Shown one piece after another: positions 25,904 to 54,947 of a DNA stretch of 64,000 nt (position 1 is the stretch's first letter; each line of letters starts with the position of its first letter). This stretch comes from Escherichia coli (lineage in GTDB: Bacteria > Pseudomonadota > Gammaproteobacteria > Enterobacterales > Enterobacteriaceae). The notes beneath the pieces are model-generated. The model saw nothing but the letters and a program-made list of their open reading frames with translations. It was not told the DNA's origin and searched no databases. A program made the translations under genes and the position numbers. Where the stretch lies: NCBI RefSeq assembly GCF_003019035.1, contig NZ_CP027447.1; one strand, written 5' to 3'.

Positions 25904-27487
<1,584 letters not shown>

Positions 27488-27532
27488 TTAATTAGCATAA
27501 CTGTAATGGTGACCATATGTGCAGGCCTACAA

Positions 27533-27961
27533 TTAGTGCCACCACATCATGCCCTGAACGGTCGCTGCTGCAACTGCAACATAGCGTAACGCTTTACCAA
27601 GGCACAAAAAAAAGATTACCGGCCCCCAGGAGATGCGCATCCATCCCGCTAAGAGACACAGTAAATCGCCAACCACGGGCATCCAGCTTAATAATAGCGT
27701 GACTGCACCATAGCGTTTCAGCCAGCCGGTAGCTTTCTCTTGCCAGCGCGATGTTTTACGCAATGGAAAGAAACGCCCAAGGATAACGTTAGTTAACCCT
27801 CCAAGGCTATTACCCATTGTTGCTGTTAAAACTAAAACCCAGGGATGACTGATCCCGGAAAGCAACATTGCCACCAGCACGACTTCGGAGTTGCCGGGTA
27901 ATAGTGTAGCGCTGAGAAAACTACTGGCAAACAACGAGAAAAGCGATAACGCTTCACTCAC
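27533..27961 (-). CDS. yqaA: DedA/SNARE-associated family inner membrane protein
   Basis: 142-aa membrane ORF in conserved position. Confidence 0.85.
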   Translation of the reverse strand: MSEALSLFSLFASSFLSATLLPGNSEVVLVAMLLSGISHPWVLVLTATMGNSLGGLTNVILGRFFPLRKTSRWQEKATGWLKRYGAVTLLLSWMPVVGDLLCLLAGWMRISWGPVIFFLCLGKALRYVAVAAATVQGMMWWH

Positions 27962-53091: not shown

Positions 53092-53157
53092 TGCCGGATG
53101 CGGCGTGAACGCCTTATCCGGCCTACAAGGCCCGATAAGCGTTGCGCATCGGGCAAT
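53092..53157. repeat. REP pair (BIME) downstream of ascB
   Basis: GCCGGATGCGGCGTGAACGCCTTATCCGGCCTACA followed by an inverted partner GGCCCGATAAGCGTTGCGCATCGGGCA. Confidence 0.75.
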
Positions 53158-53170
53158 CTGGCGTTTGGCA

Positions 53171-53422
53171 TCAGAGCTGGTTCACCCCATCAAGAACATC
53201 CCCCTTTATCAAGCAACGCTGCGTCAGCGCCAGATCTTCCGATTGCGGGTCGCGCCCGGCGATGGGTTTGAGGACGAGTTTACGGTTGGGGGTATAAGTA
53301 AAACGCGTGAGCGCGGGATAGCTTAACTTGCCAAACCAGCCGTGAACACGCTGCCATTTGGCGTCTTTTACCTGATACAGACTGGTTATCCAGTAACCGG
53401 AATCAAACTGCATATCCAGCAA
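53171..53422 (-). pseudogene. orphan ORF fragment, possibly the 3' remnant of a gene truncated by the adjacent insertion
   Basis: 83-aa ORF with no convincing ribosome-binding site; an in-frame stop lies just upstream of its first ATG; sits between the ascB REP and the prophage-like region. Confidence 0.3.
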
Positions 53423-53636
53423 TTGCGTGTGGCCATTCCTTGATCAGACATGAGATAAATGAAGGGGGATCCGTGAGATAAATAACGAATTGGAGTGGGT
53501 TAACATGGGTTCTGGTGAACAGAACTGAAATTCTTTTTCGTTATACGATAGATAAGTCGGACATTGAAATCATCCTTTCTGGCAACTTAGAATCGAGTTT
53601 GCTGAAACATGACTCGTAACAAAAAGGATGATTCCA

Positions 53637-53798
53637 ATGACTACTCAAAACAATAAGCATGATAGCCTGGATTACTCAGAAAAGCCCAAAAGCAAGCACA
53701 TCGTGACGTTCGAGCGCGATTCCGGTAGAAAAGGAGAATCGTCTTCCTCTGCCAATAAAAACACTATACCGGCAGCTCCTGCTCCGGGGAAAAAATAA
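53637..53798 (+). CDS. hypothetical small hydrophilic protein (53 aa)
   Basis: Hand-translated MTTQNNKHDSLDYSEKPKSKHIVTFERDSGRKGESSSSANKNTIPAAPAPGKK; AAGGA about 10 nt upstream of the ATG; below the ORF-track cutoff. Confidence 0.25.
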   Translation: MTTQNNKHDSLDYSEKPKSKHIVTFERDSGRKGESSSSANKNTIPAAPAPGKK

Positions 53799-53801
53799 AC
53801 A

Positions 53802-54434
53802 TCATTCATCGTTCGTTGCACGAACGCGCCTGATCTCCACTCTGGCAATCTGATCTGCTGGAATATAGGTTGCCAGAGCTCCCCAGTACTTATCAACCAC
53901 GCCTTTATACTCTTCCCATTCGTTACTGCCTGAAGGGCTGCTGTGTGTGACGTAAAGAACCATATCGCCTTTATTCCCCAGGGTAAACGGACCGTTAGGC
54001 CACTCTTCAAAGTTCCCTGGCAGTCGTGACATCATACCGGAACCATCGCGAAGAATCACTCTGACCTCGGTGACGCTGAAGTCTGTTTGATCAAACATTG
54101 CCTGCCATGCTGAGCTGGTATCGTCAGACCATGAAATATCATTATTCCACAGTAATCTGTACATCCATTTGCGACCGTACCTGCGCCACCACGCACCACA
54201 TGTAACAGCACACAGAAGTGCTGGTGGTGTTGCCAGCCAGGCATTCAGACCTGCCCACATAACAGCCTGGTAAGCCATCATTGCTGTCAGGCCAAAAATT
54301 AGCGAAGAAAAAGTCACCTCAATGGGTTTGTGCTGATCCTTCAGCCCCACATTCGCAATAAAATACCCAATATAGCCACTGGTCAGAGTCACCAGTGTTG
54401 CCCATGGCAAATTTAACAACGAAACGTCAAACAT
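53802..54434 (-). CDS. prophage-encoded membrane protein, unknown function (3 predicted TM helices plus about 120-aa soluble domain)
   Basis: ORF 53802..54512; start trimmed to ATG 54434 (MFDVSLLNLPW...), which has an AGGGAG Shine-Dalgarno 6 nt upstream; lies just past the post-mor terminator. Confidence 0.6.
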   Translation of the reverse strand: MFDVSLLNLPWATLVTLTSGYIGYFIANVGLKDQHKPIEVTFSSLIFGLTAMMAYQAVMWAGLNAWLATPPALLCAVTCGAWWRRYGRKWMYRLLWNNDISWSDDTSSAWQAMFDQTDFSVTEVRVILRDGSGMMSRLPGNFEEWPNGPFTLGNKGDMVLYVTHSSPSGSNEWEEYKGVVDKYWGALATYIPADQIARVEIRRVRATNDE

Positions 54435-54471
54435 ATTTTCTCCCTGCATCCTGAATACTACAGAGAGAGCA

Positions 54472-54508
54472 TAAAAAAAGCACGGTAAGGGGTCTACCGT
54501 GCTTTTAT
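54472..54508 (-). terminator. intrinsic terminator after mor (end of the early operon)
   Basis: Minus strand reads GCACGGTA-GACCCCT-TACCGTGC followed by TTTTTTT; A-tract on the other side makes it potentially bidirectional. Confidence 0.8.
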
Positions 54509-54548: not shown

Positions 54549-54947
54549 TTATCTGGATTTGTTAACGTCTCTCGTCTCTTCTGGCAGATCTTCATCAAAC
54601 AACCTGCCCTGCATCCGATCCAGTTCTTCTTTTCTGACCCGCTTAACCACGCTGTAGACCCACTGAAGCGAAACACCAAACTTGCGGGCCAGTTCATGGT
54701 GGTTGCGTCCGTTAAACTCCCGGAAGATTTCCCGGTCGCGCTGACTGACCTTCCATACCATGCCCATCGGGAAATAAACGTTTTGCCCGCCCCAGACCTG
54801 CATCATGCGGTTCGCGACGGCCTGACCAATCTGGTCGGCAATTGCGGGCTCAATATCAATAATCTCGCGAACGGTCTCAGAGGTATGCTGTGCCAGTTCC
54901 ACCAGGAGTTCCGGCCCTTTACTTCGAAACTGATTCAGGTCGCTCAT
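54549..54947 (-). CDS. mor: Mor-family middle-operon transcription activator
   Basis: 132-aa ORF; C-terminal HTH (HHELARKFGVSLQWVYSVV) and position after GemA as in Mu; family assigned from memory. Confidence 0.75.
   Translation of the reverse strand: MSDLNQFRSKGPELLVELAQHTSETVREIIDIEPAIADQIGQAVANRMMQVWGGQNVYFPMGMVWKVSQRDREIFREFNGRNHHELARKFGVSLQWVYSVVKRVRKEELDRMQGRLFDEDLPEETRDVNKSR

What the first reader, a model, noticed from the sequence alone, without database searches (positions are those of the whole stretch)
53802..54434. Terminator-insulated membrane protein gene just after mor: candidate phage-exclusion or abortive-infection cargo
In Mu-type phages mor is followed by the late activator and lysis/structural genes. 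Here a strong terminator (54472-54508) ends the early operon, and a separately initiated gene with a good Shine-Dalgarno encodes about 210 aa: three N-terminal TM helices and a roughly 120-aa soluble domain with no motif I recognise. Nothing phage-like follows it. A stand-alone membrane protein at a module boundary of a prophage is a classic moron position for superinfection exclusion or abortive infection.
Basis: inference. Interest (0 to 1): 0.7.

Follow-up and report, generated by a model that had tools for sequence, protein, structure and literature searches.

The report
Two-gene membrane cargo cassette in Mu-like prophage
The membrane-protein gene is real and is optional cargo at the end of a Mu-type prophage, but it always travels with an overlooked tiny proline-rich partner gene, forming an uncharacterised two-gene cassette that looks like a toxin/antitoxin-style or anti-phage module.

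Summary
Window 53802-54434 (-) encodes a 210-aa inner-membrane protein with three TM helices and a cytosolic beta-barrel. It has a good Shine-Dalgarno and lies behind a strong terminator after mor.

The context was misread. The prophage is a Bcepmuvirus (BcepMu-type) with an inverted early arm. Nothing phage-like follows because the prophage ends at 53441.

The gene is not stand-alone. A convergent 53-aa ORF (53637-53798, +) abuts it. This ORF is disordered and Pro/Lys-rich, ends in PAPGKK and has the best sigma70-like promoter nearby. A partner of this kind follows the membrane gene in 23 of 29 loci from gamma- and alpha-proteobacteria, against 3% of control ORF ends. Its dN/dS is about 0.15.

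The 1.1-kb cassette is accessory. It is present in 117 E. coli genomes, while 627 carry this prophage type. Near-identical phages lack it. Elsewhere it sits in siphophage structural operons, a plasmid-like element, and beside an IS and a recombinase.

The only family signal is a weak DUF6338 match, and no defence model matches.

Best guess, unproven: a membrane-perforating effector restrained by the labile micro-protein, working as an abortive-infection or addiction module. The moron idea is supported. The function is untested.

The parts
53441..53483 (.). Left end of the transposable prophage (TGATCAGAC...) with two copies of TGAGATAAAT (53451-53460 and 53474-53483), presumed transposase-binding repeats
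   Evidence: Homology with 82 other E. coli prophage copies, inserted at different chromosomal sites, starts at window 53433-53441. The same end sequence is found in PhiKM and L061. Sequence read.
53564..53593 (+). Sigma70-like promoter TTGAAA-18-TAGAAT reading inward from the phage end towards the small gene
   Evidence: 10 of 12 consensus matches. Tied for best in 15 kb of the full prophage L002. Conserved in the divergent allele L061.
53637..53798 (+). Partner gene: 53-aa hydrophilic, disordered Pro/Ser/Lys-rich micro-protein (MTTQNNKHDSLDYSEKPK...IPAAPAPGKK). It converges on the membrane gene with 3 nt between the stop codons.
   Evidence: phrog_15726 and annotated in RefSeq. A convergent partner with a Pro-rich tail is present in 23 of 29 loci, against 16 of 527 control ORF ends. 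dN/dS 0.14-0.17. Alignment of 23 partners.
53802..54434 (-). Membrane protein, 210 aa: 3 TM helices (N-out/C-in), a conserved cytosolic loop (R/K)(D/E)HHK, a conserved linker ISWSDDxxSAW, and a C-terminal Sm/SH3-like beta-barrel
   Evidence: phrog_12870. Family of 523 clusters at 50% identity.
54469..54506 (-). Intrinsic terminator hairpin flanked by an A-run and a T-run (potentially bidirectional). It separates the early operon (mor) from the cassette.
   Evidence: Scan. The hairpin travels with different cassette alleles, and 6 of 14 pairs keep pairing through changes on both sides. No such hairpin is evident, by inspection, in the post-mor sequence of the cassette-less prophage.
54549..54947 (-). 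mor (Mor/C-family activator), the last backbone gene of the leftward early operon. It is context, not part of the cassette.

Best explanation
SHOWN. The finding is one half of a self-contained accessory cassette of about 1.1 kb. The cassette lies between mor and the left transposon end of a BcepMu-type prophage. Its order is: bidirectional terminator, 210-aa inner-membrane protein gene (-), convergent 53-aa micro-protein gene (+), and a strong sigma70-like promoter for the micro-protein. The gene pair recurs in gamma- and alpha-proteobacteria inside unrelated mobile elements, while every other neighbour changes.

INFERRED mechanism. The membrane protein is a latent membrane-damaging effector. 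Its three weakly hydrophobic, Gly/Ser/Thr/Tyr-rich TM helices would oligomerise, and its cytosolic Sm/SH3-like barrel would be the regulatory domain. The constitutively made micro-protein is intrinsically disordered and therefore probably short-lived. It would hold the effector off by docking short linear motifs, (D/N)-[YF]-x-x-P and the C-terminal PPxPKK, onto the barrel. When an infecting phage shuts off host expression, or the element is lost, the micro-protein would decay. The effector would then depolarise the membrane and abort the infection or kill the segregant.

This is the logic of a toxin/antitoxin abortive-infection module. It also resembles effectors such as Cap15 and OptE, where a cytosolic beta-barrel gates TM helices.
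For: Partner conservation: 23 of 29 loci against 3% of controls, purifying selection, and conserved motifs.

The pair is the only conserved unit in the alpha-proteobacterial loci.

Accessory and mobile:
- 117 genomes with the cassette against 627 with the prophage type.
- Absent from PhiKM and the ST131 prophage.
- Inserted between the head-tail adaptor and head-closure genes of an HK97-like phage.
- Next to tape-measure genes.
- On a RepA/ParA/YoeB plasmid-like element.
- Beside a serine recombinase and an IS3.
- Beside HigB/M78 and DUF4411/M78 pairs.

The conserved residues are cytosolic or within the membrane, and the periplasmic exposure is under 10 residues.

The micro-protein has the strongest promoter nearby. 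Its composition is P 15%, S 12%, K 11%, with almost no hydrophobic residues.

In a fused-pair AF2 model only the last ~11 residues or so, the Pro-rich tail (...IPAAPAPGKK), rise to pLDDT about 59, against 31-37 for the rest.

Truncated alleles of the membrane gene are common in databases.
Against: No toxicity, binding or phage-challenge data exist. No PADLOC, NCBIfam or Pfam defence or toxin model matches.

Three loci keep an intact membrane ORF without the partner. That is hard to reconcile with a constitutively lethal toxin.

No clear promoter was found for the membrane gene in E. coli.

The convergent orientation is atypical for type II TA pairs.

The AF2 hint of docking is weak, and no coordinates were available.

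Neighbours in non-phage loci gave no PADLOC hits.
Confidence: 0.4

Rival explanations
1. Superinfection exclusion. The inner-membrane protein blocks genome entry of incoming phages, in the manner of T4 Imm, P22 SieA or HK97 gp15. The micro-protein would be an accessory factor or regulator.
For: Prophage moron position and inner-membrane location. Variable presence among otherwise near-identical prophages.
Against: Almost nothing faces the periplasm: a 9-residue N-terminus and a 7-residue loop. The conserved surface is cytosolic. The obligatory cytosolic disordered partner is not a feature of known Sie proteins (my knowledge). The cassette also sits on a plasmid-like element and beside an IS, outside phages. 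There is no homology to annotated Sie families in PHROGs.
Confidence: 0.15
2. A pure addiction (post-segregational killing) module that stabilises the mobile element and has no anti-phage role.
For: The same two-gene logic as above. It is found on a plasmid-like replicon next to YoeB and at the very end of a transposable prophage, where deletions would remove it.
Against: A transposable prophage inserted in the chromosome is not lost by segregation. Intact membrane genes exist without the partner. The convergent layout is unusual for TA pairs.
Confidence: 0.15
3. A phage life-cycle function. The protein would be a holin/antiholin-like or early host-takeover membrane factor, made by read-through of the early transcript during lytic growth.
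For: N-out/C-in 3-TM topology as in class I holins (plus my knowledge). The gene lies downstream of the early operon with no promoter of its own detected.
Against: The phage has its own lysis cassette elsewhere: a holin, an SLT transglycosylase and accessory genes at L002 13994-16047. Most sister prophages and PhiKM do without the cassette. A strong terminator insulates it from the early operon. The pair also occurs outside phages.
Confidence: 0.08
4. A physiological channel or stress protein: an MscS-like minimal channel (3 TM plus an Sm-like ring) that was simply picked up by mobile elements.
Confidence: 0.07

Closest known systems
Pfam DUF6338 (PF19865), uncharacterised integral membrane proteins
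   Same: Same size (about 200 aa) and same N-terminal TM plus C-terminal soluble layout. 26 of 178 family members give weak hits, E between 1e-3 and 3.5e-6.
   Different: The window protein itself gives no Pfam hit even at E<=10, so the family is at best a distant outlier. DUF6338 has no known function; the only paper that mentions it is unrelated.
S-2TMbeta effectors (CBASS Cap15, Panoptes OptE)
   Same: A short TM module fused to a cytosolic beta-barrel of about 200 aa in total. The effector is gated by a ligand bound to the barrel, and OptE is held OFF by its ligand (PMC12657218). One AFDB relative of this family carries that name.
   Different: Three TM helices rather than two. No S_2TMBeta Pfam hit in any of 178 members. 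No cyclase gene nearby. Cap15 is absent from the PDB fold and sequence matches. The partner here is a peptide, not a nucleotide synthase.
Toxin-antitoxin / abortive-infection pairs with membrane toxins (e.g. CptA/YgfX, Hok/Sok logic)
   Same: A two-gene mobile cassette: a membrane protein plus a small, probably labile partner under a strong promoter. It is found in prophages, a plasmid-like element and islands next to other TA genes.
   Different: The genes are convergent rather than an operon. The partner has no DNA-binding fold. The 'toxin' is 210 aa with a folded cytosolic domain. Toxicity is untested. The Cpta_toxin hits are noise: 1-2 members at E about 1e-2 to 4e-4.
Phage morons (HK97/lambda sense) such as HK97 gp15
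   Same: An optional gene block between backbone modules with its own transcription signals, present in some but not other near-identical phages.
   Different: No sequence relation. The terminator lies upstream of the membrane gene, and the recognisable promoter belongs to the partner gene.

Membership tests
Moron (accessory gene block in a prophage) | Present in some and absent from other closely related phages at the same junction | tested here: met
   117 genomes against 627. PhiKM and the ST131 prophage have mor 145-170 bp from the left end.
Moron (accessory gene block in a prophage) | Own promoter and terminator, independent of backbone operons | tested here: inconclusive
   The terminator is conserved with the cassette. 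A strong promoter-like site exists for the small gene. No site passes the scan for the membrane gene.
DUF6338 (PF19865) | Significant match to the Pfam HMM | tested here: inconclusive
   The query gives no hit. 8 of 25, 6 of 47 and 12 of 106 relatives hit at E<=1e-3, best 3.5e-6.
S-2TMbeta (Cap15/OptE) | Two TM helices fused to the S_2TMBeta barrel (Pfam match) | tested here: not met
S-2TMbeta (Cap15/OptE) | Genomic coupling to a CD-NTase or mCpol nucleotide synthase | tested here: not met
   No such neighbour in any of the loci inspected.
MscS mechanosensitive channels | MS_channel domain (TM3 plus beta domain) detectable by profile or fold | tested here: not met
Type II toxin-antitoxin | Co-transcribed pair; the antitoxin binds and neutralises the toxin; the toxin arrests growth | not testable with these tools
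   The genes are convergent, not an operon. Binding and toxicity need experiments. The only hint is the raised pLDDT of the partner's tail in the fused AF2 model.
Type I toxin-antitoxin (hok/sok-like) | Small (<60 aa) hydrophobic toxin repressed by an antisense RNA | tested here: not met
   The membrane protein is 210 aa with a folded domain. The small gene is under protein-level selection, dN/dS about 0.15. An additional antisense effect of its transcript cannot be excluded.
Class I holin | Three TM N-out/C-in, about 75-110 aa, located in the lysis cassette | tested here: not met
   The topology is similar. The protein is twice that size, and the phage's holin and endolysin block lies elsewhere, at L002 13994-16047.
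Known anti-phage defence systems (PADLOC v2) | Match to any PADLOC model | tested here: not met
   No hits at E<=1 for the membrane protein, the partner or mor.

The most novel reading that the evidence does not exclude
A widespread, undescribed class of two-gene conflict module. A constitutively made, intrinsically disordered Pro/Lys-rich micro-protein plugs or latches the Sm/SH3-like cytosolic barrel of a 3-TM pore-forming effector. Phage-induced shut-off or degradation of the micro-protein releases the effector and collapses the membrane potential. This would be peptide-gated abortive infection, a protein analogue of the 'inhibitory ligand' logic of Panoptes.
Probability: 0.3. Interest if true: 0.75.

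Novelty: new variant of a known kind. Interest (0 to 1): 0.6.

Why it matters
If the model is right, the cassette would add a compact (1.1 kb), very mobile defence or addiction module. It has 523 sequence clusters across Proteobacteria and is absent from current defence catalogues. It would also assign a first function to the DUF6338-like membrane proteins. It would give an example of a disordered micro-protein acting as the off-switch of a membrane effector. For E. coli, it marks a polymorphic cargo site at the left end of a prophage carried by about 12% of complete genomes, including ExPEC lineages. Even if the mechanism is wrong, the result corrects annotation: the 53-aa partner gene is real, is under purifying selection, and is not called in at least some records (for example NRZ14408).

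Tried and rejected
1. Mor-dependent promoter idea. The terminator dyad is centred about 43 bp upstream of a possible TAGTAT -10, which recalls the Mor site at Mu Pm. However, the dyad occurs nowhere else in the full prophage and it co-varies as an RNA hairpin. I treat it as a terminator.

2. S-2TMbeta, DUF421 and MscS membership. These were suggested by names on a few AFDB hits and by the 3TM plus Sm-like layout. None is supported by Pfam scans of 178 members or by the PDB fold and sequence searches.

3. PADLOC and NCBIfam on the pair and on neighbours of non-phage loci: nothing.

4. Literature searches for DUF6338 and for the RefSeq protein accessions: nothing relevant.

5. The search for related loci with the 47-sequence alignment failed for lack of conserved blocks. 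I re-ran it with the 25-sequence alignment.

6. The fused-pair AF2 run gave only per-residue confidence and no coordinates, so docking of the tail on the barrel could not be verified.

7. The 'Synechococcus phage Ssp-JY41' hit turned out to be a plasmid-like record in which the homologue runs off the record end.

8. GC content does not set the cassette clearly apart from the phage: 0.44-0.50 against 0.48-0.62.

Full report
**1. The observation**

The minus strand of window 53802-54434 carries a 210-aa ORF. Its ATG at 54434 lies 6 nt downstream of AGGGAGAA.

Upstream on the same strand is mor (54549-54947). It matches phrog_532 'late transcriptional activator' at E 2e-45 and is annotated 'Mor family' in RefSeq.

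Between the two genes the terminator scan finds a 13-bp stem with a T7 tail at 54506-54476.

An AlphaFold2 model built on 25 homologues has mean pLDDT 78.7. It shows:
- three helices at 11-28, 37-60 and 65-97;
- a poorly modelled linker around residues 103-113; the conserved ISWSDDxxSAW motif spans about 99-110;
- a beta-rich domain at 119-205.

Hydropathy and charge (+5 directly after TM3) place the N-terminus outside and the C-terminal domain in the cytoplasm.

No sigma70-like promoter passes the scan between the terminator and the ATG on that strand. By eye there is only a weak TAGTAT with no -35 element.

**2. Context**

A megablast search against 5,426 complete E. coli genomes shows the phage sequence starting at window 53433-53441. 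In 82 genomes it is inserted at different sites (rhaS, sfaA, kefF, yodD and others). This is the signature of a transposable phage.

The end reads TGATCAGAC... and is followed by two TGAGATAAAT repeats.

A complete copy in strain FDAARGOS_1299 (L002) is about 38 kb. Its order is:
- left end, small gene (+), membrane gene (-), mor, gemA, and so on through gam, B (ExeA-type) and A transposase, all on the minus strand;
- then regulators, a Dam methylase, a lysis block, and head, tail and invertase genes on the plus strand.

The transposase is 68-69% identical to those of BcepMu and phiE255. It is 97.6% identical to that of Escherichia phage PhiKM, which is classified as a Bcepmuvirus.

From my own knowledge (Summer et al. 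2004, not re-read here), BcepMu-type phages have the early arm inverted relative to Mu. That explains why mor is the last backbone gene before the end, and why 'nothing phage-like follows': the chromosome (ascG, ascF and ascB, assigned from their translations from my own knowledge, not by a search) begins 360 bp further on.

**3. The missed partner**

A 53-aa ORF (53637-53798, +) converges on the membrane gene. It is preceded by AAGGA and, at 53564-53593, by TTGAAA-18-TAGAAT. Only 3 nt separate the two stop codons.

It is phrog_15726 and is annotated in RefSeq.

I collected relatives of the membrane protein from genomes, IMG/VR and assemblies. In Citrobacter, Salmonella, Serratia, Devosia, Pseudochrobactrum, Afipia, Bradyrhizobium, Sphingobium, Allosphingosinicella and others I found a convergent ORF of 33-62 aa at the same place.

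I then applied a strict test: stop codon within -45 to +150 nt, at least 30 aa, at least 3 Pro in the last 16 residues, and under 22% hydrophobic residues.
- 23 of 29 distinct loci pass, against 16 of 527 (3%) control ORF ends in the same loci.
- Three more loci have a clearly homologous partner with fewer prolines.
- Three loci lack a partner.

The partners share short motifs:
- (D/E)-[YF]-S-E-x-P-K in enterics;
- two or three [NS]-[YFH]-x-P-x-T repeats in alpha-proteobacteria;
- a C-terminal PPxPKK(K) or poly-Pro tail.

Their composition is P 15%, S 12%, K 11%, T 10%, so they are intrinsically disordered.

For the three pairs with unsaturated synonymous sites, dN/dS is 0.14-0.17. In the other pairs pN is about 0.35-0.4 while pS is about 0.8-1.0. 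The ORF is therefore a real protein-coding gene.

In the alpha-proteobacterial loci no other neighbour is conserved.

**4. The cassette is accessory and mobile**

- The A-B transposase genes of this prophage type occur at 80% coverage or more in 627 genomes. The 1,096-bp cassette occurs in 117.
- PhiKM and an ST131 prophage have mor about 145-170 bp from the same left end, with no genes in between and, by inspection of the post-mor sequence, no strong hairpin.
- A divergent allele (75% and 40% aa identity for the two proteins) sits in the same frame with nearly identical flanks.
- The upstream terminator hairpin travels with the different alleles. Six of its 14 pairs keep pairing through changes on both sides.
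- Elsewhere the pair lies between the head-tail adaptor and head-closure genes of an HK97-like prophage.
- It also lies next to tape-measure genes and on a RepA/ParA/YoeB plasmid-like record.
- It lies beside a serine recombinase and an IS3.
- It lies beside HigB/M78 and DUF4411/M78 pairs.

**5. What the proteins resemble**

The membrane protein has no Pfam, NCBIfam or PADLOC match.

A profile search finds 523 representative clusters, nearly all about 200-215 aa.

Among 178 relatives scanned one by one, only DUF6338 recurs, and weakly: 26 at E<=1e-3. There are no S_2TMBeta, MS_channel or DUF421 hits.

AFDB50 returns family members that are almost all 'uncharacterized'. A few are named S-2TMbeta or DUF421, which I could not substantiate.

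Conserved positions cluster in four places:
- TM1 (G20, Y21, Y24, G30);
- the cytosolic loop (H35, K36);
- the end of TM3 (W83, R84);
- the linker (S101, D104, A109, W110) and the barrel (G148, G153, D157, Y161, T163, G185, R202).

**6. Mechanism (inference)**

Four features point to a cytosol-regulated membrane effector with a labile protein off-switch:
- the conserved surface is cytosolic and the periplasmic exposure is minimal;
- the TM helices are short and only weakly hydrophobic;
- a disordered partner under a strong constitutive-looking promoter is obligatory;
- the cassette is strictly associated with mobile elements.

This is toxin/antitoxin or abortive-infection logic. It is also analogous to Cap15 and OptE, where a barrel gates TM helices and OptE is held off by its ligand (PMC12657218).

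A fused-pair AF2 run leaves the partner disordered (pLDDT 31-37) except for its last ~11 residues or so, the Pro-rich tail (...IPAAPAPGKK), at pLDDT about 59. That is a weak hint of docking.

Evidence against the model:
- three loci keep the membrane gene without the partner;
- the membrane gene has no recognisable promoter;
- the genes are convergent;
- there are no experimental data.

I give this model 0.4. The rivals are superinfection exclusion (0.15), pure addiction (0.15), a phage life-cycle or holin-like role (0.08) and a physiological channel (0.07).

**7. Verdict**

The 'moron' reading is supported. The 'stand-alone' description and the 'mor should be followed by late genes' argument are wrong. 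The proposed function remains plausible but untested.

The real unit is an undescribed two-gene cassette that fails the membership tests for every named family I tried. I rate it a new variant of a known kind (a mobile two-gene conflict or addiction cassette) with interest 0.6.

Noticed in passing
window 53450-53594: A 144-bp piece of the prophage left end (transposase-binding repeats plus the region up to the small-gene promoter) occurs at about 89% identity in about 105 places on large E. coli plasmids, many of them from avian isolates. It is unannotated there. In the one case inspected it lies next to IS3/IS1 remnants. It looks like a relic of a Mu-type end.
   Followed up: partly
L001 (E. 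coli IAL7250) 25917-27689: The only 100%-identical copy of the cassette region lies in a prophage with an internal deletion. The deletion joins the truncated transposase gene directly to the late genes and removes the repressor, regulator and lysis-start region. That copy is defective.
   Followed up: no
L064 2752-3100: In one sphingomonad-type contig two tandem copies of the poly-Pro partner ORF (...QPKAPPPPPP...PPPPQRG and ...PPPPSKG) follow the membrane gene. The partner gene appears to be duplicated.
   Followed up: no
L015 1457-13412: In Pseudochrobactrum the cassette is inserted inside the structural operon of an HK97-like prophage, between the head-tail adaptor and the head-closure genes. 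That is an unusual place for a convergently transcribed insert.
   Followed up: partly
window 53812-53828: A small inverted repeat, CGTTCGT-TGC-ACGAACG, lies inside the last codons of the membrane gene, exactly where the two convergent genes meet. It could act on the 3' ends of either transcript.
   Followed up: no
window 53098-53330: Between ascB and the prophage end lies a GC-rich stretch (GC up to 0.56) with overlapping short ORFs on both strands. It looks like REP-type intergenic repeats, so the phage may have inserted just beyond them. I did not examine it.
   Followed up: no
L005 7690-7977 (Serratia), also L046/L047: In some Mu-type prophages an extra gene of about 95 aa sits between mor and the membrane gene in place of the terminator hairpin. 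The cassette therefore has at least two upstream architectures.
   Followed up: no
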